64,000 bases of DNA, from positions 14,252-78,251 of the forward strand of contig CAWBMW010000017.1 of assembly GCA_963790015.1 (NCBI GenBank), written 5' to 3'. Source of the DNA: an uncultured Gammaproteobacteria bacterium (lineage in GTDB: Bacteria > Pseudomonadota > Gammaproteobacteria > Steroidobacterales > GCA-2729495). Below are positions 12,018 to 37,285 of the stretch, in pieces. Each line of letters opens with the position of its first letter. The stretch's first letter is position 1. The position numbers and the translations under genes were made by a program. The notes below the pieces were generated by a model. That model had not been told where the DNA came from and made no database searches. It saw only the letters and a list, made by a program, of their open reading frames with translations.

Positions 12018-12107
12018 GAGCGCCTTCAGGCGCGACCGGGTATTTCCCGGCAGGCGCGTCTGCGCGCCTGAGGCGAAATACCCGGTCGCGCCTGAAGGCG
12101 CTCCTAC
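12014..12107. repeat. GTAG-type REP, composite 94-bp hairpin between convergent genes
   Basis: GTAGGAGCGCCTTCAGGCGCGACCGGGTATTTCCC...GAAATACCCGGTCGCGCCTGAAGGCGCTCCTAC. Confidence 0.9.
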
Positions 12108-14110: not shown

Positions 14111-14138
14111 GGCTTCACGCCTTCCCTGGCAGCGCTGT

Positions 14139-14826: not shown

Positions 14827-14919
14827 GATCGAGTGTGTACGCGTCCATGATCTTCAGTACCTCCAGCCCAGAATTGGTGATCGCACAGTTGCCGTCGGCG
14901 ATTCCCGCCGGCCCGGTAG

Positions 14920-15387: not shown

Positions 15388-15997
15388 GGGGTCCCCTCCG
15401 TCCGGGCCGTCTTGGCCGTGGTGCCCACGCGGCGGCGCAGGTCGGCCACCCACTTCTCCACGTCCGCACTCGCGCCCTCCTCGCCGCCCACCTGCAGGTA
15501 GCGCTCGTAGTTCTGCAGGGCCAGCTCAGGCCGCGGCAGGTAGAGCTCGTAGAGCACGGCCAGGTTGTAGTAGGCCGGCGCGTAGTCCGGCTGGAGTTCG
15601 ATCGCCCGCAGGTAGGCCTGCTCCGCGTCGGCGAAGCGGCCCTGCCGGCGGCCCAGCACGCCCAGTTCGTTCCACGCGGGACCGCAACTGCTGCAGACCC
15701 GCGGTGGCGCGCTGGAAGCAGTCGGCCGCGGCCGCCTCGTCGCCGGCGCGGGCCCTGGCGAGCCCGAGGGTCAGGAGCGGGCCGGCCAGGTCGGGGTGCG
15801 CGGCGCTGAAGCTTCTCGAGATCGGCTAGAGCGGTGGCGTCGGTGGACTGGAGGCGGGACGAGCAGACCGTCGTAGGCGCGACTGGAGCTCGGGGGATGG
15901 GGCTTCGGCGGTCGCGGCTGAAGCCGCTCCTACGGGAGCTTGTGCCAACGGTGGCGCAGCCGGCGAGTGCGCCGAGCGCCAACGCCAGCAGCACCAC
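15384..15997 (-). CDS. TPR-repeat lipoprotein; at least 2 frame breaks (~15805, ~15690); contains a REP arm in its coding sequence
   Basis: Lipobox MVLLALALGALAGC. TPR units are HPDLAGPLLTLGLARARAGDEAAAADCFQRA and AWNELGVLGRRQGRFADAEQAYLRAIELQPDYAPAYYNLAVLY. Confidence 0.7.
15911..15933. repeat. GTAG-type REP, single arm (inside the TPR lipoprotein ORF)
   Basis: GTCGCGGCTGAAGCCGCTCCTAC. Confidence 0.7.
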
Positions 15998-16009
15998 GCC
16001 AGGTTCAGG

Positions 16010-20790: not shown

Positions 20791-20793
20791 GGG

Positions 20794-21363
20794 CTACTCC
20801 CACTCCTTCACCAGGAACTCGGGCTGCTGCTTGCTCTCCCGGTCGGAGATGCGCAGCTCGACGAACTTGGCGCCGATGCCCTTCTCCACCTTCAGCGTGG
20901 CACCGCGCCGGTAGTCCCGGGCGTGGGGGCCCTGGCCGGTGAACACGGCCGTCAGCTCGTGCTCGCCCGTCTTCAGGTTGCCCAGGTAGATCCGGTGCAC
21001 GCCGCCGCGGAGGAGCGCCGCGACCTCGCGCTCGGTGTAGAGGTAGTTGCTGACCGGCTTGTCGTCGATCCGCAGCTGCACCGAATCCAGGTCGAAGAAG
21101 TCGCCCACGTCCATGGAGACGAAGACCGCCACCTGGGTATTGGCCGGGAAGAGCAGCTCTTCCTCCAGGAGGAACAGTTCCCGGTTGAGGTCCAGCACCT
21201 CGTCCTTGAGGACCTGCACCTCGCTGTCCACGCTCGCCGTCGGCGGCCGGCGCGGCGCGGGCGCGGCGGCCTCCTCCACGGCCCGGACCGGCTGGAGGCC
21301 CAGCGCGGCGCCGAGAAGCAGGGCGCCGGTTATGAAATGCAGCTTGAAGCGTTTGGGTGTCAT
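20794..21363 (-). CDS. secreted protein of unknown function, first structural gene after the redoxin in the TonB/TPR operon
   Basis: Intact. Signal peptide MTPKRFKLHFITGALLLGAALGLQPVRA, followed by a beta-rich body. Confidence 0.65.
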   Translation of the reverse strand: MTPKRFKLHFITGALLLGAALGLQPVRAVEEAAAPAPRRPPTASVDSEVQVLKDEVLDLNRELFLLEEELLFPANTQVAVFVSMDVGDFFDLDSVQLRIDDKPVSNYLYTEREVAALLRGGVHRIYLGNLKTGEHELTAVFTGQGPHARDYRRGATLKVEKGIGAKFVELRISDRESKQQPEFLVKEWE

Positions 21364-21373
21364 GGTGCGTCCT

Positions 21374-21868
21374 CTACTCCTGGAGAAGAGCGGCCAGCTC
21401 TTCGTCGTACAGGGCGGCATCGCCGCCCCGGTATTTCTCGTGCACGTGCCGCACGGTGCCGTGGGCGTCCACGAGCACGGTCAGCGGCAGGTTGGACAGG
21501 TCGTACTGGCGGGCGACGGACTGGTCGCTGTCGTGCAGGACCAGCACGCCGGAGCGGCCAGCGGCCTCGCGGGCAGGCCTGGCGTCGGTGTCGATGTTGA
21601 CCGTGACCACCCGGACCCCGCGCTCGCCGTACTGCTTCTGGAGGCGTGCGAGTTCCTGGAGCTGGTCGCTGCAGCGGCCGCACCAGTCGGCCCAGAAGGA
21701 CAGCAGCACCACTTCGCCCCTCCATTCGGAGAGGCGCAGGTTCTCGCCGGCGGCGTTCTTCAGGGCGAAATCGGGGGCCGGCTGGCCGGGAACGACGGTG
21801 CCGGAGCCGATGGCCAGCGACGGCAAGAGAATTGCCGTGAGGAGCATGGCCAGAAGCTGCGTGCGCAT
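21374..21868 (-). CDS. TlpA-like periplasmic thiol:disulfide oxidoreductase (redoxin family)
   Basis: Signal peptide MRTQLLAMLLTAILLPSLAIG and active site WADWCGRC. The track ORF N-terminal extension was ignored. Confidence 0.85.
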   Translation of the reverse strand: MRTQLLAMLLTAILLPSLAIGSGTVVPGQPAPDFALKNAAGENLRLSEWRGEVVLLSFWADWCGRCSDQLQELARLQKQYGERGVRVVTVNIDTDARPAREAAGRSGVLVLHDSDQSVARQYDLSNLPLTVLVDAHGTVRHVHEKYRGGDAALYDEELAALLQE

Positions 21869-23188: not shown

Positions 23189-24161
23189 CTACCGGGACTG
23201 CAGTGCCTTTGAGAAGCGGACGTTGCGCTCGGCGTCGATGACGACGGCGGCGTAGCCGGGCGTGGCGTCGATGAGCGCGAGGCCGCGCTCCGGACCGAGG
23301 ATGAACACGGCGTTGTCCAGGCCGTCGGTCATGGTGGCGTCCGGACCGATCACGGTGACGCTGCGGACGCCCGCGCGCCGAGTCGCCGGTCTTCGGATTG
23401 ATGATGTGGTGATAGCGGACGCCGTCCTCGTCGAAGTAGCGCTCGTAGTCACCGGCCGTGGAGATCGCCTCGTCGTCCAGCGCCAGACGCGTGACCCAGC
23501 GATCGTCCGCGTCGGGGTCCCGGATGCCGACCATCCAGGGCCTGCCCCTGGCGGTCGCCGATCAGGCGCGTGTCGCCGCCGGCATTCACCCGTCCCGAGC
23601 GGCACGCCGGCCTTGCGCAGGAGGTCCGCCACCCGGTCGCAGGAGTAGCCCTTGCCGATGCCGCCCAGGTTGATCCGGGTCCCCTCCTGCGTGAAGCGGA
23701 TGGTCGAGGCGGCCGGGTCGAGGAGCACGTGGCGGTAGTTGATGTCCGGGAGGTTCTTCCGGATCGCAGTCGGCGTCGGGCCGGACCCCGGCCCGGAAGT
23801 CATAGAGCTTCCCCACGCTGTCGAAGGTGATGTCGAAGGCGCCGTCCGACAGCACCGACAGCTCCAGGGACTTCTGGACGATGCCGAAGAGCTCGGCGGA
23901 CACCTTCACCGGCTCCCGGGCGGCCAGCCGGTTGACCCGGGAGATCTCCGAGTCCTCCCGGTACGTGCTCATCCAGGACTCGATGCGGTCGAACTCCGCC
24001 ATTCCCGCGGCGAGCAGCGGCCGGGCGGCCGCCTCGCTGTCGGCCCACAGCTGGATCTCGACCTTCGTGCCCATCTTCTGCCGGGCATCGCTGTACCACT
24101 CCGCCCGGAGTGGCGCGGCGGCCAGCAGCAGCAGGCAGGCACAGAGAGGGACACGGCGCAT
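23189..24161 (-). CDS. apbE: FAD:protein FMN transferase ApbE; at least 3 frame breaks (~23770, ~23590, ~23385)
   Basis: Signal MRRVPLCACLLLLAAAPLRA. The pieces MGTKVEIQLW, AFDITFDSVGKLYDF, INLGGIGKGYSCDRVADLL, AISTAGDYERYF...YHHIINPKTG and ATMTDGLDNAVFILG lie in alternating frames. Confidence 0.85.
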
Positions 24162-24211
24162 GGCGAGTCGTCCGCCCGGAGACGAGCCGGATGGTAACGC
24201 CCGGCGCGCCG

Positions 24212-25423
24212 TCAGAACCAGAGGGAGAAGAACAGCTGGACGACGGTGGCGTCGAAGTCGTAGAACGGTTCCGTCCCGGCGTCCACGTCGGCACGCAGGT
24301 CGCGGAAGTCGTCGTAGGTGTACATGTAGTAGTCCACGAAGAGGTTGACCGTGCTCTTCAGCGGCCGCTCGCCCTGCCGGTCCAGGAAGGTGTAGGTCAC
24401 GCCCGCGCGCGGGCCCTGGCTCTGGAAGGTGCTGAGCTCCTTGTCCCGGGCCAGGTAGTTCTGGGCATTGGCGTAGGGAAACAGGTCGCTGTAGAAGTCC
24501 GCGGCGGACTGGGTGTAGAAGCGGTACCTGACGTCGAAGAGCCACCTCGCGCGGAACGGGTGGACGTAGCCGACCTCGACCGTGTGGGCGTCGATGCCCC
24601 AGTCGTCCGTGAAGAAGCGGTACTCGCCCGAGACCGCGGCCCGGTACGGCAGGTGGTACTTGCCCCGGATCGCAACGGCGTTGCTCGCCCGGGTCTCCGG
24701 GTACACCTCGCCCTGGGTCAGCCAGTTCGTCGGGTCGGCCGGGTCCACGTAGCGCACCTGGCGATACGGGTTGTTCAGGTAGCCCTCGTCGGCGACCGCC
24801 TCGTAGGACAGGCCCATGATCAGGTTGCGGGTGATGACCTGGGTGACGCCGAGCCGGTAGGCGTGGCGGTCGACCTCCTCGGCGAAGACCTCGTCGCCGC
24901 GCCGGCTCACCTCGTCGGCGCCGCTGCCGTAGCCCAGCGTGATGGTCGTCAGCCCGCCGAACACATCCTGGCTGATGGCGAAGTTCAGCGTGTCGGCCTG
25001 GTAGTCGTTTCGTCGCTGGTGCTGTAGCCCACGCTCATCGTGGTGTCGCCACGGAGGTAGTCGACACCGACGCCGTACTGGGTGCGCTCCTCGCTGTAGC
25101 CATCGGGGCTGGCGCCCGTGGTGACCACGTCGATCGACGCGCTGCTGATCGTGTCCACGTAGTAGCTGCCCGAGACCGAGACCTTCTCACCCACGGACTT
25201 CCGCACCAGCACGCGACGGGCCATCGATCTGGACGCCGCCGCCGTCGTAGTAGTGATAGAGCGTGTCGACGCGCTCCTCGGGCAGCACGCCGGAATAGGC
25301 ACTTGTGGAGAACAGGAGCAGTAGGAGCGGCTTCAGCCGCGACCGGTATTTCCCTCTGGCGCTGAGACGCGCCTGACGGGAAATACCGGTCGCGGCTGAA
25401 GCCGCTCCTACTGTTTCGTTCAA
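24212..25423 (-). CDS. DUF3570 outer-membrane beta-barrel protein; frame breaks ~25215 and ~25010; N-terminus read through a REP
   Basis: The C-terminal 250 aa are intact and end ...VQLFFSLWF. The upstream pieces LYHYYDGGGVQIDGP and SGSYYVDTISSASIDVVTTGASP are in other frames. Confidence 0.8.
25321..25411. repeat. GTAG-type REP, composite 91-bp hairpin (inside the 5' end of the DUF3570 gene)
   Basis: GTAGGAGCGGCTTCAGCCGCGACCGGTATTTCCC...GGGAAATACCGGTCGCGGCTGAAGCCGCTCCTAC. Confidence 0.9.
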
Positions 25424-25430
25424 CGCATCA

Positions 25431-25652
25431 TCAGTTGCACCCGCAACCGCCGCCGGAGCTGCCGGAGGCGCCCCGGGCGCCCTCGCGGGCCTCGTGGACG
25501 TGATCGATATAGGAGCCCGACACCGGGTTCCGGTCGAAGCTCATGATCGGATCGGCCAGGCGGTCCCGCTCGTAGGGCTTCACCCAGGGCTCGACGCCGG
25601 TGCAGCCCGCGAGCAGGAGGGCGGCGGCCAGGATGACAGCGCCGGGCTTCAT
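25431..25652 (-). CDS. DUF4266 lipoprotein
   Basis: Lipobox LLLAGC and the family-typical C-terminus GGGCGCN. Confidence 0.8.
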   Translation of the reverse strand: MKPGAVILAAALLLAGCTGVEPWVKPYERDRLADPIMSFDRNPVSGSYIDHVHEAREGARGASGSSGGGCGCN

Positions 25653-26170
25653 GCCTTCTCCCGGATCAGCTGGCGGATCATGTCCTGGTACTTGCTCTCG
25701 TCACCGGGCTGGTAGCCCTGGTGGATGAAGCGCACGTTGCCCTTGCGGTCGACGATCACGGTGCTCGGCATGGCCGACACGTTGTAGAGCTTGCTCACCC
25801 CGTTGGCCGGATCGAGGAGGATCGGGAAGGTCACGGGCACGTCCTTGAGGAAGGCCTCCATCAGCCGGGTGTCCTCCTCCACGTTCACGCCGAGCATCGT
25901 GAAGCCCAGCGGCGCGTACTTCTTCTGGATCTGCTCCAGCAGCGGCATTTCCTTGCGGCAGGGGCCGCACCAGGTCGCCCAGAAATTGATCAGCACCACC
26001 TGGCCCTTGAGGTCAGCCAGGGCGACGGGCTTGCCAGCCCGGGATGGCAGGTTGAACGCGGCGGCCGGCGCGGCGGCATCGCCGGCAGCGCTCCCCGGCA
26101 CGACCGGCGCTGCCAGCAGGGTCGTCGCGATGACCACGGCGCCGAGCAGCTTTGGCATCGTCTTGCTCAT
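25649..26170 (-). CDS. TlpA-family thiol:disulfide interchange protein
   Basis: FWATWCGPCRKEMP active site and a signal peptide. Overlaps DUF4266 by 4 nt. Confidence 0.9.
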   Translation of the reverse strand: MSKTMPKLLGAVVIATTLLAAPVVPGSAAGDAAAPAAAFNLPSRAGKPVALADLKGQVVLINFWATWCGPCRKEMPLLEQIQKKYAPLGFTMLGVNVEEDTRLMEAFLKDVPVTFPILLDPANGVSKLYNVSAMPSTVIVDRKGNVRFIHQGYQPGDESKYQDMIRQLIREKA

Positions 26171-26177
26171 GGATACC

Positions 26178-26838
26178 TCAGAAGAACCAGGAAAGGCCCA
26201 GGTTGAACTCGATGTTGTGGGTGGTCTTGTCCTCGCCCGTGACGTCGTTGTCGAACATGTGGTTGCGCACGTCGAAGCGCAGGGCGATCGAGTCCGTCGC
26301 CAGCACCCGGTAGCCGGCGCCGAAGGTCAGCGTGAACAGGTCCTCGCCGGCGAAGCTCGTGTTGCCGGCGCCGCCGATCACGTAGAGCGCCGAGTTGAAG
26401 GCGCGGTTCCGGCCGAGGAACACCTCGCCCGGCAGCAGGTTCCAGCCGACCGCCAGGTCGTAGTAGCTGTAGTCCCGGTCGTCGCCGAGCAGGTCGATGT
26501 TGTCGAGCACCTCGACGCTGGACCGGTCCACGTCGCCGGTCATGGCGTAGGTGCCCTCGAGGAACAGGCTCTCGCTCACGTGGTAGGCCACGCGGGCGCC
26601 GTAGATGAAGTTCGAGCCGAAGTCCTCGACGCTGATCTGGCCCACGTAGGCCGTGATCTCGAAGTCCTCGGTGTCGATCTTCGGCGTGCGTGATCTCGCG
26701 CCGCTCCACCTCCGGCGAGATGACCGGCGCGGACGCCCCGGCATCCTCCATCGGAGGCTCGTCCCGGCCGAAGAGGCTGCAGCCGGTCGTGGCTGCCACC
26801 AGTCCGGTCAGAAGAAGAACGCGAAGCCCGCTTTCCAT
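26178..26838 (-). CDS. outer-membrane beta-barrel lipoprotein (OMP_b-brl type); frameshift ~26690
   Basis: Lipobox LVAATTGC. The barrel part DFEITAYVGQISVEDF...IEFNLGLSWFF ends in an aromatic C-terminal residue. Confidence 0.7.
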
Positions 26839-27550
26839 TCGTCCAGTTCCTCGTTGTCGTCGCGGCTCGTGAAAGTCAGGTAGCTGTTGTACTCACCCCG
26901 GAACATGAAGCGCCGGGTCACGTACATCCGGAGCCCGAGGCCCACGTGCCCCACCTGGTCCGTGCGGTCCTCCGTCTGGACCAGCGTCGCCGCGGGCTCG
27001 ATGTGGATCACGCCCGTCCCCAGCGCCGCGTAGGGCGACACGCGCCACTCCGGGAACGGCTGGTGCACGATGTCGGCCGTCGCGATCCAGCCGCTCGAGT
27101 AGTCGCCGCTGATGTCGCCCACCCGGAGTTCCGTCGACAGGTTGCGGGTGAAGTGGTACCCGCCGTAGACGGAAATCACGCTCGCGCCGTCGAGGTCGCC
27201 CAGCTGGAGGCCCACCTCCCAGCGCCGCCCCACGTAGTCGTCGGCCGTCGGGTCGTCCAGGGCGCGTCGGCTTGCCCGCCGTATCCAGCGTCTCCGCCAT
27301 CTGCTCGAGCTTCACCCAGCCCTCGACGCCCTTCGCCGTGCGCACCTGGAACCAGTCGGTCCGGCGCTTCACGCACGTCGATCTGCTCGCCCTTGTCCAC
27401 CACATGGAACACCGGGAAGCCCCGCCCGGGTCCCGTGTGGAGCTCGAGAAAGGGCTCCGCCACGACGGCCTCATAGTGGCTGGTCTTGCCATAAGCCGGT
27501 GTGACGGAGGGCAAGAAAACGAGGGCCGCAATGAGGATGAACTGGCGCAT
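26808..27550 (-). CDS. SH3-domain plus outer-membrane beta-barrel protein; frame breaks ~27370 and ~27250
   Basis: Signal MRQFILIAALVFLPSVTPAYG. SH3b-like region is LELHTGPGRGFPVFHVVDKGEQIDV / RRTDWFQVRTAKGVEGWV. The barrel ends ...WKAGFAFFF. Confidence 0.7.
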
Positions 27551-27568: not shown

Positions 27569-30220
27569 TCAGTCGAGGGGCGCCAGGAACGGGTCGTTGT
27601 AGTACTGGGCGCCGATGTCCACCCACTCGGAAAGCAGGCGCAGTTCCGCGGGCAGGAGTCTTCCGGCAGTGGGAGCCGCCCGCCGCGAAGCGGTTGAAGA
27701 AGGTGCCCGAGGCCAGCGCGCCGGCCGTGCTCATCGGGGGATTGACGCCCACGGGCGCGAACACGGGATCGCCGGTGACCGGATCCACGCCGACCTGGAC
27801 GAGGCGGTCCTGCAGGTTGCCCCCGTTCAGCTCCTGCTCGTTGTCGGCGGAGAAGAGCTCCCGGTAGGCCTTGAAGTGCGTCGCGTCGATGTCCGACGGG
27901 CCATTGGTGAGGTCCAGCTGCGCGGCAGGCACCCGCGCGGCCATGTTGGCGTCCACCGGCGAGTGGCAGCTGGTGCAGGTGTCGTCCGACAGCACCGTGA
28001 CGCCATCCACGTCCAGCGTCACCCGCGGCTTGGCCCAGAGCGGGTGGATGTGCGCCTCGTAGTGGAGCGTGATCCGGCAGCTCGGCGACCAGTCCGTGAG
28101 GCAGGAGCCGGGCGTGGGCAGTGGCGTCGTCAGGTCGGCGTAGCGGTACGCGAAGCTCGCGTCCTTCGCCCGCCCCGCCGCGACCGGGTCGGTCCAGATG
28201 TCGTCGTAGACCACGTCCACGCTCGGCGTGACCAGGGCGCAGTCCGTGGCGCAGCTGATCCGCTCCTTGACCTGGGCCATGGTCTCGCCGAAGTCGGCGA
28301 AGAACGCGGGCTCGGTGTTCGGGAACGGCTGGGCGTCGGCCGGAGCGCCTGCCCAGGCGCTGACGAAGGCGTCCTTCCGGCCGTGGGACACGTCACTCGT
28401 GGGGACGTGGCAGCCATTGCAGGTGAGCACCTCGCCCGGACGGACCTGCAGCCAGTTCTGGTGGCGGCTCGTGATGCGGCGGCCGTTCGCGGTCGAGCAC
28501 CGACAACGCCAGCGGCACGTTGGCGGGCACCTTCGCCACGACGGAGCCGTCCGGCTCCACCGGCACGTAGCCGAGGATCTCGCGCATGCCCTGGCCAGCG
28601 CTCACGCCAAAGGCGCTGTTGTCGAAGTCGCGCACGTCGTCGTCGGGCAGGGCCACCGCCTTCTCCAGGCGCAGGAAGCGGGCCGGCCGCTCGTCGGCGG
28701 TGGTCTGGGCCGGGTCGGCGAGGACGGCGATGTTCACGCCCGCGCCCGTCACCCCGTCGAAATCGTAGACGCTGCGGATGTCGATCAGGCCGGCACCCTC
28801 CGCCAGCAGGTCGGGGTCGGCGCTGCCCGTCGTGGCCAGGTCGTAGATGATCGGCGGCACCGCGCGGGGCTGGCCGGCGACGATGTCGCTGATCAGGATG
28901 CCCTCGACCGGCGCGAATATCGGCTGCTGCGTGTTCGCAACCCGATCGTAGATCCAGACGCCGTAGAGCGGCGGCGCGGCGACGACGTTCGGGTCAGCCA
29001 GCGCGGCGGCCGTGCAGGGAATGATCTGCAGCGTGGCGCTCAGCAGGCGGCACGGGCTCCAGCTGACGAACATGCGCTCCGTGCCGTCGAACAGCGGGTA
29101 GGCCGAGCTGAACTCGCCGCCCGGCGAGATCGTGTCGTCCGTCCGCACGTCGTTGACCACGAGCCGGGACTGGGCCGGGCCCGCGAGCAGGCCGGCGTTC
29201 GGCGCGGTGGGCTGCAGGTTCTCGACGTAATTCGCGGCCTCGATGGCCACCAGGTCACCGCCGGAGTCGTCCGTCCGGAACGGCCGGACGATGGTCAGGA
29301 TGCGACCGTCGGGCATCTCCCGCGGCTGGATGAACTGGACCGTGGCGCCGTCCGTGCCCGTAGCGTGGCTCTGGGCGCCGTAGTAGAGCTCCAGGCCCGA
29401 ACCGTCCGGGTTCATCCGGTACAGGTTCATCTCGTTGTTGCCCGCCGCGTTGTCCCAGCGGGTGAACACCACCTGCCCGTTCGTGAGCACCGTCGGGTCC
29501 AGGTCGTGGCTCTGGTTGAAGGAGACCTGGTGGACGTCGGAGCCGTCGTCGTTCATCACGTGCAGGACGAACGCGGGCTCGTTGCGGTCCTCGTCCTGGG
29601 CGTCGAACTGGGGCTTCCCCTCGTCCAGCAGCACGGCCTTCGACTGCCGTTGCCGCGTGGACGAGAAGACGATGCGCCCGTCCGGCAGGTAGTGCGGGGC
29701 CACGTCGTGGCCCGCCTCGGCGTTCAGGTCCGAGGGGATGATGCGGCGGAGCTCGTCGGTGGCGAGCGTGTACTCCCAGACGTTCCAGGTGGGCTGGTCC
29801 TCCTCCTGGGCGCCCTCGATGAAGGGACCGCGCATGGCGAAGACCACCTTCGAGCCGTCCCAGGCCATCTCCAGGTCACGGATGTCGTACAGGCCGCCAC
29901 CCTGCGTGATGCGGTTGGTGACGTTGATCTCGGCAGCGGAGACCGCGGCCCGCTCGCGCACGAAGAGGTCGGCGCCGACGTTGAAGGTGCGCAGCTCGCG
30001 CACGTCGGAGGGCTCGACGGCGCCCTGGTCATCGACGGGCACCGGCCGCTTGACGTAAGCAATGGCCACGTCAACGATGACCGGGTCGGGATCCTGTCCC
30101 GCCGCCCACGCCACCGCCGCCACCGCAGGCGGCCAGCGCGCTCGCCAGCAGACCGGCCAGAGACCTGGCCAGAAATCGAGCCGGCGCGCGTGCAAGCGCC
30201 GGCGACGGAATACTCCGCAT
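27569..30220 (-). CDS. ~880-aa lipoprotein with TolB/PD40-like beta-propeller repeats and two CxxCH motifs; at least 3 frame breaks (~30090, ~28420, ~27660)
   Basis: Lipobox LLASALAAC. PD40-like segments are PDGRIVFSSTR, NDDGSDVHQVSFN and MNPDGSGLELYY. It has CNGCH and CTSCH motifs. The C-terminus LLPAELRLLSEWVDIGAQYYNDPFLAPLD is in another frame. Confidence 0.7.
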
Positions 30221-30428
30221 CCTTGCAGTCATCATCATCCCCATCACGGCCTGCCCAAGAAAAGGCCGTGATGCATAAGAGCCGATGCGCGGCGCCCAAT
30301 TGCCCGCGAGATAACGTAATACAGCGACATTTCCACGAACCGTTAAGGCAGTCACAGAACCCCGGACTGCTCCCAAAGCTAAATGCATCCCGGCGCGCAA
30401 GGCGCCAGGCTTTTGGGATGGGCACAAC

Positions 30429-31645
30429 TTGATCACCTTGCTGTCAGGACGGCGCATTGCCGTCGCTACGTCGGCCCCGCGCGGGCGGGTCTTGAGCGCC
30501 ACGGCGCTGTCGGCCCTGCTGGTGCTGGCCGCTTCGTTGGCGTCAGCTACCGCGGACGCTGGCCCGCGCGAGCAGGCCCGGCGCATCCACGAGCGGCTGG
30601 CCGGCGTGCCGCCGACCGAGGCCGTGCTGGCCGACATGCAGGCGGACGTGGCCGGCAGCAACGCCACCGACGCGGCCTACACGGCCATGGACAACAGCAG
30701 CTTCTACAGCGTCACGCTGAAGAACTTCGCCGCGCCCTGGACAAATCGCGACCAGAGCGTCTTCGTGCCCCTGAATGACTACACGGCGACCGTCATCGGC
30801 ATGGTGCGCGACGACGTGCCCTTCAACACGCTGCTGTCGGCCAACCTGGTGTACGTCGGGACCGGCGGCGGGATTCCCGCCTACTCGCCCAGCCAACAAC
30901 GACCACTACCAGGCGCTGGAGGACCAGAATGCCGACCTGAAGACGCGGCTGACGGCCTCGAGCCAGACCGCCGTCAGCGGCCTGCCGGACTCGGCCACGG
31001 CCGGCGTGCTGACGACGCGCGCGGCCGCCGAGGCCTTCTTCGTCGCCGGCACGAACCGGGCGATGTTCCGCTTCACCCTGCTGAATCACCTGTGCCGCGA
31101 CATGGAGCAGGTGCTGGACACGCGGGGCGTGCCCGACCGGATCCGCCAGGACGTGTCGCCGAAGCCCGGGCGGCGACAGCCGCATCTTCCTGAACAACTG
31201 CATCGGCTGCCACATCGGCATGGACCCGCTGACCCAGGCCTTCGCCTACTACACCTTCGATCCGGTCCAGGGCCGCATCGTCTACACCCCGGGCGTGGTG
31301 CAGCCCAAGTACTTCAACAACGATGCCACCTTCCCGCACGGCTACCGCACGCCGGACGACCAGTGGAGCAACTACTGGCGCGCGGGCCAGAACGCCCTCC
31401 TCGGCTGGGACAGCCAGCTTCCGGGCAGCGGCGCCGGCGCCAAGTCCATGGGCCAGGAACTCGCCAACAGCACCGCCTTCGCGCGCTGCCAGGTCGAGAA
31501 GGTCTTCCGCAACGTGTGCCTGCGCTCGCCGGTGGATGGCACCGACCGCACGCAGATTGATTCGATGGTCAGTTCGTTCCGGTCCGGCGGCTACAGGCTG
31601 AAGCAGGTCTTTGCCGAGTCCGCTGCGTACTGCATGGGCGATTGA
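30429..31645 (+). CDS. secreted CxxCH-motif protein, DUF1588/DUF1585-like; frame breaks ~30895 and ~31190
   Basis: Signal ALSALLVLAASLASATA. CIGCHIGMDPLTQAFAYYTFD resembles the C..CH..DP.G motif of planctomycete-type PSCyt/DUF1588 proteins. Start codon uncertain (TTG at 30429). Confidence 0.6.
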
Positions 31646-31659
31646 ACGGAGGCTTGACG

Positions 31660-34154
31660 GTGAAAACGGAATCGGGATCGCGCCTGAAGGCGCTCCTACG
31701 GGCCTCGACCCTCGCCATCGCGGCTTCGGTCCTCGCCGCGTGCGGCGGCGGTGCCGGCACCGAGCGGCTGCCGCCGACGGGCGTCACGCCGCCGTCGACC
31801 TACACGGGCCCGGCGCCGCAGACCGTGGATATCCAGAACTTCATGAATGCCCTCTGGACGAACGTCCGGAACGGCGGCGTGGCGAACTGCTCGGCGTGCC
31901 ACGGCAACACCCAGTCACCGCTCTTCGCCCGGGACGACGACGTGAACCTGGCCTGGGCCGCGGCCGACCAGCTCGTCAATCGCACCGACCCCGGCCTGTC
32001 CACCATCGTCCAGAAGATGGCCGAAGGGCCACAACTGCTGGCTTGGCAGCAACCAGGCGGCCATCCAGGCCTGCGCGACGACGATGCAGACGTGGGTGGA
32101 GAACTGGGTCGCCGGCACGGCGAGCGGCGGCACGAAGACCATCCAGCTGGTTGCCCCGCCCCTCAAGGACGTGGGCCAGAGCCGCAACTTCCCGGCCGAC
32201 TCCGCGGGCTTCGCGGCCACGGTCTACCCGCTGGTGACCGAGTACTGCGCGGGCTGCCACAGCTCCTCCTCGGCCACCCAGCAGTCCCCGTTCTTTGCCG
32301 ACGAGGACGTGGAGACCGCCTACCAGGCCGTGAAGACCAAGATCAACCTCGACAGCCCGGAGAGCTCCCGGCTGGTGCTCCGCCTGCGCGACGAGTTCCA
32401 CAACTGCTGGGACAACTGCACGAGCAACGCCCAGGAGATGGAGGACGCCATCGCCGCCTATGCCGCGACGATCGACGTGACGTCCGTCGATCCGGCGCTG
32501 GTCATCAGCCGGGCGCTGACCATGTACGACGGGACCGTCGCGAGCGGCGGCAGCCGGTACGAGGCGGGCCAGATCGCCCTCTGGGAGTTCAAGGAAGGCA
32601 GCGGCACGACGGCCTTCGACACCAGCGGCGTCCAGCCGGCCATCAACCTGACGCTGTCGGGCGACATCGCCTGGGTCGGCGGCTGGGGCATCAACATCCG
32701 CAGCGGCCGGGCGCAGGGCTCGACCACCGCCAGCCGGAAGCTGCACGACCTGATCACGGCCACCGGCCAGTACAGCATCGAGGCCTGGGCGGCGCCCGCC
32801 AACGTGAACCAGGAGGAGGCGCGCATCGTCACCTACTCCGCCGGCTCCACGCTGCGCAACTTCACCATGGGCCAGACGCTGTACAGCTACGACTTCTTCA
32901 ACCGCAGCAGCACGTCGGACGCCAACGGCTCGCTGCTGCAGACCCTGGACGACGACGAGGACGCCCAGGCGACCCTCCAGCACGTCGTGATGACCTACGA
33001 CCCGGTCGCGGGCCGGCGCATCTACGTGAACGGCGTGTACACCGAGGACCCGGACACGGCCATGGGCGGCACCCTCGGCGACTGGGACGACACGTTCGCG
33101 CTGGTGCTCGGCAACGAGCCGTCCGGCGACCGGCAGTGGCAGGGCGTGCTGCGCATGGCCGCGGTCCACAACCGCGCACTGACGCCGGAGCAGGTCCAGC
33201 AGAACTTCGACGCCGGCGTCGGCGAGAAGTTCTTCCTGCTGTTCGACGTCGAGCGCCCACAGCGGCGCGGCGAGCAGCTACGTGCTCTTCGAGGTCAGCC
33301 AGTTCGACAGCTACAGCTACCTGTTCAACCGGCCGACCTTCGTCAGCCTGGATCCGGACTGGACGCCGTCGACGCCGATTCCGGTCCGCGGGCTGCGCAT
33401 CGGCGCCAACGGCGTGGTGCTGCCGATCAGCCAGGCCTACCGGAACCTGGACACGGCGGTCAGCGTGGCGAACGGCTACTCGGCCGCCACCGGCCAGGTG
33501 CTGTCGAGCCTCGGCACGGTGATCCCGCTGGAGAAGGGCCCGGACCAGGACGAGTTCTTCCTCACCTTCGAGGTGCTTCGGCAACAGCACCAACGTGGTG
33601 ACCGAGCCGGCACCCCTGACCCCGCCGCCGCCCGCGGACGGCGACCCCGTCTCCGACATCGGCGTGAAGACCTTCGACGAGATCAACGCCACCATGGCCG
33701 CGATCACCGGCGTCTCGCCGAACCAGCCGGCCGTGAAGGCCACCTTCGCGCTGGTCCGGCAGCAGCTGCCGGCGGTCGTCGACCTGAATGCCGTGCTGGC
33801 CTCGCACCAGGTGGGCATCGCCCAGCTGGCCATCGAGTACTGCAACGCGCTGGTGGAGGACGACGCGCTGCGGACCAGCCTGCTGGCGGCGGCTTCAACT
33901 TCAGCGCGCCGGCGAGCACGGCCTTCGACACGGGCCCGGAGCGGGACCAGATCTTCGTACCCGCTGCTGACGCGGGCCATGGGCACGAATCGTCGACCAG
34001 CCAGCCGGACGCATCGGCCGTCGCGACGGAACTCGACAACCTGACGACAGACCTGACGGCTTGCGGCGGGTCCTGCGCCGCAGACCGGACCGAGACGGTC
34101 GTGAAGGCAGCCTGCGCAGCCACGATCGGCAGCGCAGTGACGCTGGTGCAGTAG
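31660..34154 (+). CDS. ~830-aa lipoprotein with two CxxCH motifs and a LamG (concanavalin-like) domain; at least 4 frame breaks
   Basis: GGAGG at 31648, then GTG at 31660. Signal (M)KTESGSRLKALLRASTLAIAASVLAAC. Motifs CSACH and CAGCH. The LamG-like block is IEAWAAPANVNQEEARIVTYS...LQHVVMTYDPVAGRRIYVNGVY...WQGVLRMAAVHNRALTPEQV. The TAG stop is in a REP. Confidence 0.7.
31678..31699. repeat. GTAG-type REP, single arm (encodes the signal-peptide n-region SRLKALL)
   Basis: TCGCGCCTGAAGGCGCTCCTAC. Confidence 0.75.
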
Positions 34155-34172
34155 GAGCGCCTTCAGGCGCGA
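34151..34172. repeat. GTAG-type REP, single arm
   Basis: GTAGGAGCGCCTTCAGGCGCGA. Confidence 0.75.
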
Positions 34173-34188
34173 ACCGTAGGCAACGGAC

Positions 34189-35789
34189 ATGGCACGCAAG
34201 AAGACCCGCAACTACTTCGAGCCGCAACGGCACCCCGATCATCCGCGGCCCATCACGCGCCGGCAGCTGATCGCCCAGGGCTTCATGGCCGGGACGGCGA
34301 CCGTGGTCGGCGCCGGCGTCTTCAGCCTGTTCGCCAACCCGCGGGCGGCCTACGCCGCGCTCGCCCCGGACCTGGAGGCGCTGAAGGCCTCCTGCGGCAT
34401 CGCCACCCAGGGCGCCGGCAAGATCCCGTTCATCTGCTTCGACCTGGCGGGCGGCGCCAACATGGCCGGCTCCAACGTGCTCGTCGGCGGCGCCGGCGGC
34501 CAGCTCGACTTCCTCTCCACCGCGGGCTACAGCAAGCTCGGCCTGCCCGGCGACATGATCCCGCCGGTCGTGAGCGCGATCACCCAGCAGGATCACGTCG
34601 ACCAGACCCTGGGCCTCGCCTTCCACAGCGACAGCGCCTTCCTGCGCGGCATGCTCATGGCACGTGTCGGCCGGCACCGCCGCCGACATCAACGGCGCCG
34701 TCATCCCGGCCCGGTCGGAGAACGACACCGGCAACAACCCGCACAACCCCATGTACGGCATCGCCCGCGCCGGCGCCGACGGCTCGCTGCTCGGCCTGAT
34801 CGGCTCGCGCAACGCCGACTCCGGCGGCAACTCCATGGCGCCCGTGATGATGATCAACCCCGAGGACCGGCCCACGAAGGTGGACCGGCCGAGCGACGTG
34901 ACCGGCCTGGTGGACACGGGCGCCCTCGTGGGCCTGCTGAACCAGGCGGACGCGGTGAAGGTGCTCGAGTCCATCCAGCGCGTCAGCGACATGAAGCTGC
35001 AGCGCGTGGACACCCGGCTCGACGGTGACCCAGGACGACGTGATCAAGGACCTGGTGAACTGCGGCTACGTGAAGTCGGCGGACATCGCGGACCGCTTCG
35101 GCGATCCGTCGAGCCTGAATCCGTCCATCGACCCGGACATCGTCGGCCCGACCGGCATCTTCAGCCAGGCCGAGTTCGACAGGCAGCGACGAGTTCCGGA
35201 AGACCGCGTCGGTGATGAAGCTGGTGATCAACGGCTTCGCCGGCGCCGGCACGCATCACGATGGGCGGCTACGACTACCACGGCGGCCGCCGGGCCGAGG
35301 GCGAGGTGAAGGACTTCCGCGCCGGGCGCTGCATGGGCGCCTGCCTCGAGTACGCCGCGCGCGTCGGCGTGCCGCTGATGATGTACGTGTTCAGCGACGG
35401 CTCGCTGTCCAGCGACGGCGCGATCGACGACTACGGTCGACGGCCGCGGCAAGGGCGAGTGGACCAGCGACAACCAGTCCACCGCCGCGTCGTTCTTCCT
35501 GGTCTACAACCCGGCTGGGCGGCCACGCTGCTGGGCGGCACGCCCGACGCGAGCAGGCGCAGGCACCAGCAGCTCGGCTACATGCGCCGCGACGGTTCGG
35601 TGGAGACCGCGGCGCACACCGGCGGCCAACAACGTCAACCTGCTGGTGGAGACGGTGCTGCTCAACTACATGGCGCTGCACGGCGAACAGGGCAACTTTG
35701 CCACGCTGTTCCCGGGCCACGGCCTCGGGTCGCCGGCACTGCGCGACTCGCTGACGGCCTTCGAGCCGATCGTCAACGGCACGATCTAG
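34189..35789 (+). CDS. Tat-signal secreted protein, DUF1501-like (alkaline-phosphatase-superfamily fold suspected); at least 5 frame breaks
   Basis: Twin-arginine signal ITRRQLIAQGFMAGTATVVGAGVF. The pieces IPFICFDLAGGANMAGSN, MGGYDYHGG and PLMMYVFSDGSLSSDG are spread over three frames. The C-terminus is ...LTAFEPIVNGTI. Confidence 0.6.
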
Positions 35790-35794
35790 ATCCC

Positions 35795-35883
35795 GTAGGA
35801 GCGCCTTCAGGCGCGACCGGGTTCCCATCAGCTCGCGGACACGCTCACGCGGGAATCCCGGTCGCGCCTGAAGGCGCTCCTAC
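35795..35883. repeat. GTAG-type REP, composite 89-bp hairpin
   Basis: GTAGGAGCGCCTTCAGGCGCGACCGGGTTCCC...GGGAATCCCGGTCGCGCCTGAAGGCGCTCCTAC. Confidence 0.9.
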
Positions 35884-35913
35884 GGGCGCACTGACCGCAG
35901 TGCCATAATCGGC

Positions 35914-37285
35914 ATGCCGCACCCGGTGTCACCGCCCTCCTCGCCTGCCCCCGCTGCGAGGTCGCCGTCCGTCAGTACCCGGACGCGAGCTTCGGCTGCA
36001 GCGGCTGCGGGCTCAAGTTCCCGTCGCTGGCCGGGGTGCCGTGCCTGTTCGCAGAGCCGGCGGCGACACTGGCCGAGTGGCGCCAGCGGCTGAAGTTCTT
36101 CGCTCGAGAAGCTGGCACAGGACGCCGCGGGCGTGCAGGCCGAGTTGCAGAACCCGCGGCTGCGGCCCCTCACGCGGGAGCGGCTGACGCTGCAGAACCG
36201 GGCCTGCGGCGACCAGGCGCGGCGGCTCGCGGAACTGCTGTCACCGCTGGCGCTCCAGGGCTGGCCAGGCCGGCCTGGCCACCCACCTGGCGCTGCAGAC
36301 GCGGCTGCCGACCGACCAGGGCCTCACCACCTATTACCCGAACATCCACCGGGACTGGGCCTGGGGCGACACGGAGAACGCGGAGTCGCTGCAGCTCGTC
36401 GTGGGCGCGCTCGGCGGGACGGCGCCCGGCAACCTGGTGGTCCTGGGCGCCGGTGCGGGCCGCCTGGCCTACGACCTGCACCAGCAGCTGCCGGCGGACA
36501 ACACTGTCGCGCTGGACTTCAATCCGTTGCTGGCCCTGGTGGCCGCGCGAGCCGTGTCCGGCGAGGGCGTGGAACTCTGGGAGTTTCCGGTCGCGCCCCG
36601 CTCCATCGGCGACCACGCCGTGCTGCGGACCCTGGTGGCGCCGGAGCCGGTGCGGGACGGCTTCCACCTGATCCTGGGCGACGTGCTGCGCCCCCCGCTG
36701 GTCGCCGGGAGCATCGACGTGGTCGTGACGCCCTGGGTGGTGGACATCCTCCCGGAGGACTTCCGCCACTTCGCAGCCCGGGTGAACGGGCTGCTGAAGC
36801 CCGGCGGCCGCTGGATCAGCTTCGGGTCCCTCGCGTTCAGCCAGCCCGAGGCCGCCTGCCGCTACAGCCTGGAGGAGGTCCTCGCCATCGTCATGGACAG
36901 CGGCTTTGCCGAGCCCGACGTCCGGGAGGATGAGATTCCTTATATGTGCTCGCCGGCCAGCCGCCACGGGCGGCGGGAGCTCGTGGTGACGATCGGCGCG
37001 ACGAAGGAACAGTCCGTGGCCAAGCCGCCCCGGCACCGGGCGCTGCCGGACTGGCTCGTGGCAGGAACGCAGCCCGTGCCGCTGCTGCCCGCCTTCCAGC
37101 TGCAGGCCATGACCACGCGGATCTACGGCTTCATCATGGGGCTGATCGACGGCCGCCGGTCGGTGGCCGACATGGCCAAGCTGCTGGCGGACCAGCGGCT
37201 GATGACGCGGGAAGAAGCGGAACCGGCCATCCGCACCTTCCTGACAAAGATGTACGAAGACAGCCAGCGCCCCCCCGGCTTCTGA
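35914..37285 (+). CDS. class I SAM-dependent methyltransferase with N-terminal Trm112-like zinc ribbon and extra C-terminal domain; ~3 frame breaks (~35925, ~36095, ~36265)
   Basis: Zinc ribbon LLACPRCEVAVRQYPDASFGCSGCGLKFPSLAGVPCLF and SAM motif I VVLGAGAGRLAYDL. The intact 294-aa C-terminal frame is 36401-37285. Confidence 0.7.

What the first reader, a model, noticed from the sequence alone, without database searches (positions are those of the whole stretch)
27569..35789. Divergent cluster of four large secreted proteins with planctomycete-type cytochrome-like (CxxCH) modules, a LamG domain, PD40 repeats and a Tat-exported DUF1501-like partner
**Minus strand.** A ~880-aa lipoprotein with PD40/TolB-like repeats and the motifs CNGCH and CTSCH.

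**Plus strand, from a shared ~200-bp divergent region.**
- A ~400-aa protein with CIGCHIGMDP, the C..CH..DP motif typical of DUF1588/PSCyt proteins.
- A ~830-aa lipoprotein with CSACH, CAGCH and a LamG domain.
- A ~530-aa protein with a twin-arginine signal (TRRQLIAQGFMAG) and DUF1501-like blocks (FDLAGGANM, GGYDYHGG, FSDGS).

The pairing of PSCyt-type and DUF1501-type proteins is abundant and functionally unexplained in Planctomycetes and Verrucomicrobia. I would consider it uncommon as a compact four-gene locus in a gammaproteobacterium. Whether the five CxxCH motifs bind heme is unknown.
Basis: partly seen in the sequence, partly recalled or inferred. Interest (0 to 1): 0.6.

Follow-up and report, generated by a model that had tools for sequence, protein, structure and literature searches.

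The report
Conserved haem-protein and Tat-enzyme envelope locus
The four genes are real and belong to a widespread but uncharacterised gammaproteobacterial cell-envelope locus (haem proteins, a Tat-exported phosphatase-fold enzyme, a flavin/thiol outer-membrane operon and a Ton-like motor), and in this window they look broken only because the assembly carries single-base insertion errors.

Summary
All nine quoted motifs, the gene order, the coordinates and the ~183-bp divergent region are present. However, none of the four genes is one open frame in the window. About 17 single-base insertions break them. Six same-genus genomes lack these bases, and ≥99%-identical contigs from four independent metagenome studies lack the 11 listed in that table. 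They are therefore almost certainly assembly errors, not decay.

In intact orthologues:
- Protein 1 is a hydrazine-synthase-alpha-like PD40 two-CxxCH lipoprotein, not a PSCyt protein.
- Protein 2 is a one-CxxCH protein with a sub-threshold PSD2 match.
- Protein 3 is a two-CxxCH LamG lipoprotein.
- Protein 4 is a Tat-exported protein of a family with no Pfam model. It resembles DUF1501 and the alkaline-phosphatase fold only weakly.

All five CxxCH motifs are invariant in 64-66 orthologues.

The locus is not uncommon. It occurs in at least 591 species genomes, and in 38 of 296 evenly drawn high-quality gammaproteobacterial genomes. It lies beside the ApbE/DUF3570/DUF4266/TlpA flavinylation operon, and usually near an ExbB/ExbD/TonB-TPR operon.

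The function is unknown. My best guess is an outer-envelope haem/flavin/thiol relay serving a hydrolase-fold enzyme.

This scan has already noted the same module in 34 other windows.

The parts
27569..30245 (-). Hydrazine-synthase-alpha-like lipoprotein of about 890 aa. [quoted passage not shown] It is the first gene of the minus-strand operon. In the window it is broken by 1-bp insertions at 27668 and 28487, with a further one at 30097 in the Gly-rich linker.
   Evidence: Searches give the positions and frameshifts. The intact orthologue P0001 matches PF18582 at 3e-16 (60 bits against a cut-off of 26.6). It is collinear with PDB 5C2V_A. C66 (lipobox), both CxxCH motifs and H648/H886 are conserved in 64/64 orthologues.
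30246..30428 (.). Divergent intergenic region of about 183 bp between the two operons.
   Evidence: Sequence read. No Fur, Pho or FNR-like box was found across 65 orthologous regions.
30429..31645 (+). Sec-exported protein of about 400 aa with one haem motif (CIGCHxGMDP). It has a sub-threshold PSD2/DUF1585 C-terminus. It is broken by insertions at 30892 and 31159.
   Evidence: PSD2 matches at 9.5e-5, below the gathering cut-off, and in 18/20 orthologues. The ESM Atlas neighbours are PSCyt3/PSD4/PSD2, with TM 0.6-0.67. C292, C295, H296 and M299 are conserved in 65-66/66.
31650..34154 (+). Lipoprotein of about 830 aa. It has two repeated CxxCH modules (CSACH, CAGCH), a LamG domain and a C-terminal domain. 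It is broken by insertions at 32024, 33250, 33577, 33884, 33959 and 33992. The start coordinate is approximate.
   Evidence: Laminin_G_3 matches at 2e-18 and in 20/20 orthologues. The lipobox Cys and both CxxCH motifs, each with a His about 44-47 residues further on, are conserved in 65/65. In distant lineages the N-terminal two-CxxCH part and the C-terminal domain are separate genes.
34189..35789 (+). Tat-exported protein of about 531 aa from a family with no Pfam or NCBIfam model. Databases often mislabel it 'GspF'. It is probably a divergent alkaline-phosphatase-superfamily enzyme close to DUF1501. It is broken by at least 8 indels (34662, 35021, 35182, 35254, 35432, 35521, 35559, 35615 and others).
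   Evidence: R25 and R26 are invariant in 79 sequences, as are D180, D362, H364, D403 and D427.
35913..37285 (+). Class I methyltransferase with a PqqD-like C-terminal domain, about 456 aa. It is an accessory gene of the Tat-enzyme module. It has two frameshifts in the window.
   Evidence: It follows the Tat gene in 21/80 loci. A 27%-identical homologue sits beside Tat-enzyme modules in the distant locus L101.
23189..27550 (-). The rest of the minus-strand operon, downstream of the HZS-alpha-like gene: SH3 + OMP barrel, OMP barrel, TlpA-like redoxin (CGPC), DUF4266 lipoprotein (C-terminal CGC), DUF3570 barrel (TGAS flavinylation motif) and ApbE.
   Evidence: for the window. for the intact G014 copy. 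The same order and strand hold in 56-57 of 57 loci.
12104..21868 (-). Linked third module: an operon of TPR proteins (about 650 and 945 aa), ExbB, ExbD and a TonB-like protein. An IS200-like element separates it from ApbE here. In other genomes it lies directly downstream of the Tat gene.
   Evidence: The 945-aa TPR gene lies 2-13 kb from DUF3570 or from the Tat gene, on the same contig, in at least 30 sampled genomes (searches compared).
35792..35890 (.). REP-like palindromic repeat of about 95 bp between the Tat gene and the methyltransferase gene. It is dispersed in this genome and its relatives and matches on both strands.
   Evidence: many hits to query positions 8393-8490 in G000 and the same-genus genomes.

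Best explanation
**What is shown**
- The region is the core of a conserved gammaproteobacterial cell-envelope locus built from modules.
- Module B (plus strand) encodes a Sec-exported one-CxxCH protein, a two-CxxCH LamG lipoprotein and a Tat-exported protein whose conserved Asp/His/Ser residues and fold resemble the alkaline-phosphatase superfamily. Its closest named relative is DUF1501.
- Module A (minus strand) starts with a hydrazine-synthase-alpha-like propeller lipoprotein carrying two CxxCH motifs. It runs on through two outer-membrane barrels, a TlpA-type thiol reductase, the CXC lipoprotein DUF4266, the ApbE-flavinylated barrel DUF3570, and ApbE.
- A Ton-like ExbB/ExbD/TonB-TPR operon (module C) usually lies nearby.
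- The genes are intact in nature. The window's frameshifts are consensus errors.

**What is inferred**
- The thiol, flavin and haem carriers form an electron relay at the periplasmic face of the outer membrane.
- This relay serves, or is served by, the Tat-exported enzyme.
- The enzyme acts on a substrate held by the LamG and propeller domains.
- The substrate and the direction of electron flow are unknown.
For: **Genes intact, frameshifts artefactual:**

**Conservation and layout**
- In 57/57 loci with enough flank, all four genes plus SH3, OMP and DUF4266 lie in the same order. DUF3570 is present in 56/57.
- The family is in at least 591 species genomes and in 38/296 evenly drawn high-quality class genomes.
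- In that draw, 34 of the 40 genomes with the Tat protein also have an HZS_alpha protein. That protein always lies about 5 kb from a divergent DUF3570.

**Haem**
- All five CxxCH motifs are invariant, each with conserved candidate distal His or Met residues.
- The first motif of protein 1 aligns with the haem alpha-I motif of PDB 5C2V_A.
- CcmE is present in the genome.

**Export**
- The lipobox Cys residues and the twin arginines are invariant.

**Tat enzyme**
- The AlphaFold2 model has pLDDT 87.
- All top 50 Foldseek PDB hits are alkaline-phosphatase-superfamily members.
- hhalign against DUF1501 aligns the motifs collinearly.
- The ESM Atlas gives TM 0.52-0.61 to DUF1501 models.

**Flavin/thiol operon**
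- Pfam matches and the CGPC, C-terminal CGC and TGAS motifs.
- DUF3570 has been shown to be flavinylated by ApbE (PMC8238504).

**Ton-like module:**
Against: - No experiment shows haem binding, flavinylation of this divergent DUF3570 subfamily, or any activity.
- The fold evidence for the Tat enzyme is weak. Foldseek E-values are 0.01-0.2 with TM about 0.2. The hhalign probability is 21-23%.
- An alkaline-phosphatase fold suggests hydrolysis, which needs no electron relay.
- Modules A and B can occur apart. A occurs without B in G195, G293, G122, G246 and G132. B occurs without A in the distant locus L101. A physical or functional coupling is therefore inferred from adjacency only.
- No regulatory box was found.
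Confidence: 0.55

Rival explanations
1. Nutrient-scavenging hydrolase with non-redox partners. The Tat protein is a phosphatase- or sulfatase-like hydrolase. The CxxCH/LamG proteins mainly bind or present a polymeric or organic substrate. The Ton-like motor imports the product. Any haems are structural or sensory and do not form a relay.
For: - The weak fold hits are to the alkaline-phosphatase superfamily, and there is a conserved D-S-A-like motif (D149-S150-A151) at a helix N-terminus.
- A LamG domain is present in 20/20 orthologues.
- An ExbB/ExbD/TonB operon is linked.
- The PSCyt literature points to carbohydrate-binding modules and sulfatase neighbours (PMC5615132).
Against: - The five CxxCH motifs, including the His, are invariant, with candidate distal ligands.
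- Protein 1 is homologous to a true haem enzyme subunit.
- The locus is tightly linked to a flavinylation/thiol redox operon.
- No Pho box lies in the divergent region.
Confidence: 0.2
2. Sox-like carrier chemistry. The C-terminal Cys arm of DUF4266 (GGGCGCN) carries a covalently bound intermediate. Haem proteins load it oxidatively. The Tat hydrolase releases the product. TlpA resets the carrier. This would be analogous to SoxYZ, SoxAX, SoxB and SoxS.
For: - DUF4266 ends in a Gly-rich CGC tail, and TlpA has CGPC.
- The locus holds several c-type haem proteins plus a Tat-exported hydrolase-fold enzyme.
- The Sox analogy itself comes from my general knowledge and was not tested.
Against: - DUF4266 belongs to module A, and the Tat enzyme to module B.
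- The two modules occur apart in several genomes.
- No sulfur-oxidation genes were seen nearby.
- There is no sequence relation to the Sox proteins.
Confidence: 0.08
3. The cluster was recently transferred horizontally from a planctomycete or verrucomicrobium into this gammaproteobacterium.
For: The ESM Atlas neighbours of proteins 2 and 3 are PSCyt/PSD families from Planctomycetota, Verrucomicrobiota and Myxococcota.
Against: - The locus is present with the same synteny across many gammaproteobacterial orders.
- It is in 18/18 genomes of the genus.
- Its GC content (0.68-0.70) equals that of its surroundings.
- No protein reaches a PSCyt or DUF1501 HMM.
- The nearest Atlas clusters are Pseudomonadota.
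- No phylogeny was built.
Confidence: 0.04
4. The four genes are true pseudogenes in this organism: a decaying locus.
For: Every gene has several frame-breaking indels in the window.
Against: - The indels are nearly all 1-bp insertions.
- They occur across the whole window, not only in this locus.
- Eleven are absent from contigs about 99% identical in four independent studies.
- All of them are absent from six same-genus genomes.
- GC3 periodicity is fully retained in each frame segment.
- The genome has the low completeness typical of an indel-rich assembly.
Confidence: 0.03

Closest known systems
Planctomycete-type PSCyt/PSD proteins paired with Tat-signal DUF1501 (PF07394) or DUF1552 (PF07586) proteins. 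Their function is unknown (PMC5615132, PMC3542564).
   Same: - Exported CxxCH proteins, some with LamG, are encoded next to a Tat-signal protein of a phosphatase-like fold.
- The C..CH..DP-type motif and a PSD2-like C-terminus occur in protein 2.
- DUF1501 aligns collinearly with the GGxxD, GGWDTH/GGYDYH and post-strand acidic motifs of protein 4.
   Different: - No PSCyt1/2/3, PSD1, DUF1501 or DUF1552 HMM is reached.
- There is no HXXSHH motif.
- The locus is single-copy per genome, not the many copies reported for PVC genomes (general knowledge; 19 DUF1552 copies were seen here in G026).
- The Tat enzyme is larger (about 530 aa) and unusually conserved, about 70% identical across orders.
- Protein 2 looks like a PSCyt3/PSD2 type, whose usual partner is DUF1552, but the enzyme looks closer to DUF1501.
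- The locus is linked to the DUF3570 and Ton-like operons.
ApbE-associated DUF3570 / DUF4266 / thioredoxin-like flavinylation system (Meheust et al. 2021, eLife 10:e66878, PMC8238504)
   Same: The operon contains DUF3570, DUF4266 with a C-terminal CXC, a TlpA-like CxxC protein and ApbE. The paper likewise leaves the function open.
   Different: - The DUF3570 here is a divergent subfamily. Its Pfam E-values are 1e-26 to 1e-45, covering only part of the model, and it has one canonical [ST]GA[ST] site.
- The paper's main text does not mention the HZS-alpha-like two-CxxCH lipoprotein, the two OMPs, the Tat-enzyme module or the Ton-like operon. Its supplement was held only in truncated form.
Hydrazine synthase alpha subunit (PDB 5C2V chain A) and the wider family of HZS_alpha-domain proteins
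   Same: - Propeller, then a middle domain with CxxCH, then a C-terminal CxxCH domain.
- Three collinear matching stretches, including the C-terminal EW(V/I)D(I/L)GAQ motif.
- PF18582 is well above its cut-off.
   Different: - No beta/gamma (MauG-like) partner is present in the locus.
- The protein is lipid-anchored.
- It occurs in organisms that do not perform anammox.
- None of the non-anammox homologues has an experimentally confirmed function (PMC12758564).
Alkaline phosphatase superfamily (E. coli PhoA, TAB5 AP, iPGM, LtaS, sulfatases)
   Same: - All top 50 weak Foldseek hits belong to this superfamily.
- An Asp ends the first strand.
- A D-S-A-like motif sits at a helix start.
- D-x-H and a later Asp are conserved.
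   Different: - There is no significant structural or sequence match (E >= 0.01, TM about 0.2; PDB profile search empty).
- Large helical insertions span residues 235-350.
- The catalytic assignment of S150 is inference only.

Membership tests
PSCyt/PSD planctomycete cytochrome families (PF07635, PF07583, PF07627, PF07587, PF07624, PF07631) | Match to a family HMM above the Pfam gathering score | tested here: not met
   Only PSD2 matches, and below the cut-off (22.5 against 25.8 bits). It recurs at E<=0.01 in 18/20 orthologues of protein 2. No PSCyt1/2/3, PSD1 or PSD4 hit was found in 60 proteins.
PSCyt/PSD planctomycete cytochrome families (PF07635, PF07583, PF07627, PF07587, PF07624, PF07631) | Conserved CxxCH haem-attachment motif(s) | tested here: met
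   All five motifs are invariant in 64-66 orthologues, down to 37-50% identity.
PSCyt/PSD planctomycete cytochrome families (PF07635, PF07583, PF07627, PF07587, PF07624, PF07631) | Fold or feature similarity to family members | tested here: inconclusive
   ESM Atlas feature scores are 0.87-0.93. TM is 0.6-0.67 between a cluster representative of protein 2 and PSCyt3/PSD4/PSD2 models. These are leads, not statistics.
PSCyt/PSD planctomycete cytochrome families (PF07635, PF07583, PF07627, PF07587, PF07624, PF07631) | Covalent haem actually bound | not testable with these tools
   This needs a haem stain or pyridine haemochrome on expressed protein. CcmE is present in the genome.
DUF1501 (PF07394) | Match to the family HMM | tested here: not met
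   0 of 40 diverse family members match at E<=0.01. PF07394 finds other genes in 28/41 genomes of the order but none at E<=1e-10 in the window's genome G000, so not the window's protein 4.
DUF1501 (PF07394) | Twin-arginine signal peptide | tested here: met
   TRRxFL is present, with R25 and R26 invariant in 79 sequences. The N-terminus was read in the window.
DUF1501 (PF07394) | Profile-profile homology and collinear signature motifs (GGxD, GGWDTH, SEFGR) | tested here: inconclusive
   hhalign gives probability 21-23% and E about 1e-3. The motifs FDLAGGAN, GGYDYH and VFSDGS align with the DUF1501 motifs over 419 columns.
DUF1552 (PF07586, HXXSHH) | HMM match, HXXSHH motif and profile similarity | tested here: not met
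   - No Pfam hit.
- hhalign aligns only the Tat signal, with probability 8%.
- No HXXSHH motif is in the printed sequence.
Alkaline phosphatase superfamily | Core alpha/beta fold with a metal-binding Asp/His set and a nucleophile at a helix N-terminus | tested here: inconclusive
   - The model has pLDDT 87.
- All top 50 Foldseek hits are superfamily members, but at E 0.01-0.2 and TM about 0.2.
- D86, S150, D362, H364 and D403 are conserved.
Hydrazine synthase alpha / HZS_alpha-domain proteins (PF18582) | Middle-domain HMM above cut-off, with a propeller and two CxxCH motifs in the same order | tested here: met
   - 60.2 bits against a 26.6 cut-off.
- 20/20 orthologues match.
- Three stretches are collinear with 5C2V_A.
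Hydrazine synthase alpha / HZS_alpha-domain proteins (PF18582) | Adjacent beta/gamma (MauG-like two-haem) subunit genes, as in true hydrazine synthase | tested here: not met
   No neighbouring gene gives a peroxidase/MauG-type hit in the Pfam scans of the locus. The protein is therefore not a hydrazine synthase.
DUF3570/DUF4266/thioredoxin-like/ApbE flavinylation system | All four components adjacent, with a CXC tail, a CxxC motif and [ST]GA[ST] site(s) | tested here: met
   - Pfam matches: DUF3570 8e-47, DUF4266 1.3e-22, Redoxin 3e-28, ApbE 8e-84.
- Motifs: CGC tail, CGPC, one TGAS site plus an adjacent SSAS.
- Window copies were found.
DUF3570/DUF4266/thioredoxin-like/ApbE flavinylation system | DsbD-type membrane electron donor in the cluster | not tested
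   No search was made for DsbD or CcdA.

The most novel reading that the evidence does not exclude
The three linked modules form one machine spanning the cell envelope and driven by the proton-motive force. The modules are the Ton-like motor with TPR proteins, the HZS-alpha-like haem lipoprotein with the flavinylated DUF3570 barrel and thiol shuttle, and the PSD2-like/LamG haem proteins with the Tat enzyme. In this reading an alkaline-phosphatase-fold enzyme performs a redox-coupled reaction rather than a purely hydrolytic one. The methyltransferase with its PqqD-like domain may act as a cytoplasmic maturase or a chaperone that binds the Tat signal. That signal carries a conserved HxxHxxPxTRR stretch before the twin arginines. 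If true, this would also give a first function to the enigmatic PSCyt + DUF1501/DUF1552 pairs of PVC bacteria and to the DUF3570 flavinylation system.
Probability: 0.12. Interest if true: 0.8.

Novelty: new variant of a known kind. Interest (0 to 1): 0.48.

Why it matters
Two large sets of bacterial envelope proteins have no known function. One is the PSCyt/PSD cytochrome-like proteins with their DUF1501/DUF1552 partners. The other is the ApbE-flavinylated DUF3570 system. This locus joins distant relatives of both, as one copy per genome, in culturable and genetically tractable marine Gammaproteobacteria (Alteromonas, Paraglaciecola, Microbulbifer, Pseudoalteromonas, Shewanella). Knock-outs and biochemistry are therefore feasible. 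The Tat enzyme is about 70% identical across orders, which points to a strongly constrained catalytic role.

For this particular window the practical lesson is different. The assembly carries frequent single-base insertions, so any gene call or 'pseudogene' reading from it needs checking against relatives.

Tried and rejected
- **Single-sequence AlphaFold2 of the Tat protein** gave pLDDT 34 and was unusable. It was repeated with a 79-sequence alignment.
- **PDB sequence-profile search with the Tat family** gave only chance hits.
- **The search for related loci with the 40-sequence alignment** failed because the alignment was too diverse. It was repeated with 11 closer sequences.
- **ORF coverage per contig as a measure of assembly error** was uninformative. 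It was replaced by indel counts against G014 and by laying independent contigs.
- **Fur, Pho, FNR and OxyR-like boxes and shared 9-mers** in 65 divergent regions showed nothing above noise.
- **The supplement of PMC8238504** was searched for HZS_alpha or LamG next to DUF3570. The file is truncated and gave no information.
- **DUF1552 as the relative of the Tat enzyme** was rejected.
- **True pseudogenisation and recent transfer from PVC bacteria** were considered and rejected (see the rival explanations).
- **No phylogeny was built.**
- The DUF3570 tally includes one unpublished genome (G094). No conclusion rests on it.

Full report
**1. The observation**

A six-frame search finds all nine quoted motifs at the stated place and strand. 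The outer coordinates are the two stop codons, and the divergent gap is about 183 bp.

The window does not contain four open genes, however.
- ORF lists show only fragments.
- The phase of third-position GC jumps inside each gene.
- tblastn with intact orthologues from a same-genus genome (G014, 89% DNA identity; ORFs of 918, 439, 844 and 531 aa) needs 3, 3, 5 and at least 3 frame segments.

**2. Why the genes are broken here**

- An alignment with six same-genus loci shows about 17 single-base insertions private to the window. They are not in homopolymers.
- Against G014, gaps of length not divisible by three occur all along 14-56 kb of the window. There are 178, biased to insertions. This is therefore not locus-specific decay.
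- Contigs from four independent metagenome studies match the window at about 99%. They lack the extra base at 11 of these positions.
- The genome is 62% complete in 28 contigs, although rpoB on another contig is intact.

I conclude, at roughly 90% confidence, that these are patchy consensus errors and that the genes are intact in the organism. All four are intact in seven genus relatives and in Aliiglaciecola.

**3. What the four proteins are**

*Protein 1.*
- It matches the hydrazine-synthase-alpha middle domain at 60 bits (cut-off 26.6), and PD40 weakly.
- It aligns with PDB 5C2V chain A in three collinear stretches: propeller, the haem alpha-I CxxCH region and the C-terminal motif.
- It has no beta/gamma partner, so it is an HZS_alpha-domain protein and not a hydrazine synthase.
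- A 2025 study notes hundreds of such homologues without a confirmed function (PMC12758564).

*Protein 2.*
- It has only a sub-threshold PSD2 (DUF1585) match, which recurs in 18/20 orthologues.
- Its ESM Atlas neighbours are PSCyt3/PSD4/PSD2 families.

*Protein 3.*
- It has LamG in 20/20 orthologues and weak cytochrome c matches.
- Its Atlas neighbours are PSCyt1/LamG proteins, with low feature overlap.

*Protein 4.*
- Neither it nor any of 40 diverse relatives has a Pfam or NCBIfam match.
- Databases call it 'GspF', which is a mislabel.
- A model built from a 79-sequence alignment is confident (pLDDT 87).
- Foldseek against the PDB gives no significant hit. All top 50 weak hits are nevertheless alkaline-phosphatase-superfamily enzymes.
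- hhalign against a DUF1501 alignment gives 21-23% probability, with collinear motifs. Against DUF1552 only the signal peptide aligns.
- Invariant residues are R25, R26, D180, D362, H364, D403 and D427. S150 and D86 are nearly invariant.
- The D149-S150-A151 stretch at a helix start recalls the PhoA nucleophile motif. That is my recollection, not a test.

*All four.*
- All five CxxCH motifs and both lipobox cysteines are invariant in 64-66 orthologues, down to 37-50% identity.
- CcmE is present in the genome.

**4. The real unit is larger**

*Immediate neighbours.* In Aliiglaciecola the HZS-alpha-like gene is followed by SH3, OMP, a redoxin, DUF4266 and DUF3570. The window and G014 have the same genes, plus ApbE.

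*Consistency across loci.* Among 80 named loci, all 57 with enough upstream flank show the same order and strand. DUF3570 is seen in 56/57 and TlpA in 47/57.

*The known part.* DUF3570/DUF4266/thioredoxin-like/ApbE is the flavinylation system of Meheust et al. They showed that ApbE flavinylates DUF3570 and left the function open (PMC8238504). Here TlpA has CGPC, DUF4266 ends in CGC, and DUF3570 has a TGAS site and an outer-membrane-type C-terminus.

*Evenly drawn sample of about 300 class genomes.*
- The Tat protein is in 40, DUF3570 in 73 and HZS_alpha in 41. Thirty-four have both the Tat protein and HZS_alpha.
- HZS_alpha always lies about 5 kb from a divergent DUF3570. This also holds in five genomes that lack the Tat protein.

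I therefore separate two modules:
- Module A runs from the HZS-alpha-like gene to ApbE.
- Module B is protein 2, protein 3 and the Tat enzyme.

B lies next to A in 23 of 25 decidable sampled genomes.

*A third module.* Module C holds TPR proteins, ExbB, ExbD and a TonB-like protein.
- It is at 12.1-21.9 kb in the window.
- It lies directly downstream of the Tat gene in 19/59 loci.
- In at least 30 sampled genomes it lies 2-13 kb from DUF3570 or the Tat gene (one search compared).

*An accessory methyltransferase.* A methyltransferase with a PqqD-like domain follows the Tat gene in 21/80 loci, including here. It has a homologue beside Tat-enzyme modules in a distant lineage.

*Distant lineages.* There the N-terminal two-CxxCH part and the C-terminal domain of protein 3 are separate genes flanking the Tat gene, and a protein 2 homologue is retained.

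**5. Distribution**

- There are 1382 clusters at 50% identity with E<=1e-3.
- It is in 38/296 evenly drawn high-quality class genomes.
- It is in 18/18 genomes of the genus.
- The GC content equals that of the surroundings.

The locus is not uncommon in Gammaproteobacteria, and nothing suggests a recent transfer.

**6. Mechanism**

Shown: the export routes, the conserved haem motifs, a conserved metal-enzyme-like site and tight gene linkage.

Inferred: a thiol-flavin-haem relay at the outer envelope coupled to the Tat enzyme, with an unknown substrate. Rival readings (a plain hydrolase with binding partners, Sox-like carrier chemistry) cannot be excluded.

**7. Earlier notes of this scan**

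A sequence look-up shows the same module noted in 34 other windows. Follow-up agents there reached similar conclusions. My results were obtained before that look-up and agree with them.

I add or differ on these points:
- the assembly-error diagnosis for this window;
- DUF1501 rather than DUF1552 as the nearer relative of the enzyme;
- the split into modules A and B, shown by genomes that have A alone;
- the fusion origin of protein 3;
- the recurrent methyltransferase;
- the flexible placement of the Ton-like module.

Noticed in passing
window 14000-56000 (whole window): Single-base indels, mostly insertions, occur throughout the window relative to the same-genus genome G014: 178 gaps of length not divisible by three. 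Other findings on this window that rest on ORF integrity, junction overlaps or 'pseudogenes' should be re-read with this in mind.
   Followed up: partly
window 35792-35890: A palindromic REP-like element of about 95 bp lies between the Tat gene and the methyltransferase gene. It has dozens of copies, on both strands, in this genome and its genus relatives.
   Followed up: no
window 12104-21868; L027:11716-20517: The TPR/ExbB/ExbD/TonB-like operon is a mobile third partner of the locus. It lies downstream of ApbE here, after an IS200-like element at 22141-23188, but directly downstream of the Tat gene in 19/59 other loci.
   Followed up: partly
window 35913-37285; L002:316-1686; L101:5753-6979: A methyltransferase fused to a PqqD-like (peptide-recognition) domain recurs next to Tat-enzyme modules even at about 27% identity. 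This may indicate a maturation or signal-peptide-binding role.
   Followed up: partly
window 34189-34270 (N-terminus of the Tat protein): A conserved His-x-x-His-x-x-Pro-x-Thr stretch lies directly before the twin arginines (H19 >=90%, H16 in close relatives). Conservation in this part of a Tat signal is unusual and may mark a dedicated chaperone site.
   Followed up: no
G026 (same order), e.g. L113, L116, L119, L122: One genome of the same order carries 19 DUF1552 (HXXSHH) genes and 3 DUF1501 genes. This is a planctomycete-like expansion inside a gammaproteobacterial order.
   Followed up: no
L101:570-5752: The distant lineage has a second Tat-enzyme paralogue (542 aa) followed by a 1182-aa lipoprotein with three CxxCH motifs. 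The Tat enzyme plus CxxCH partner pairing is therefore duplicated there.
   Followed up: no
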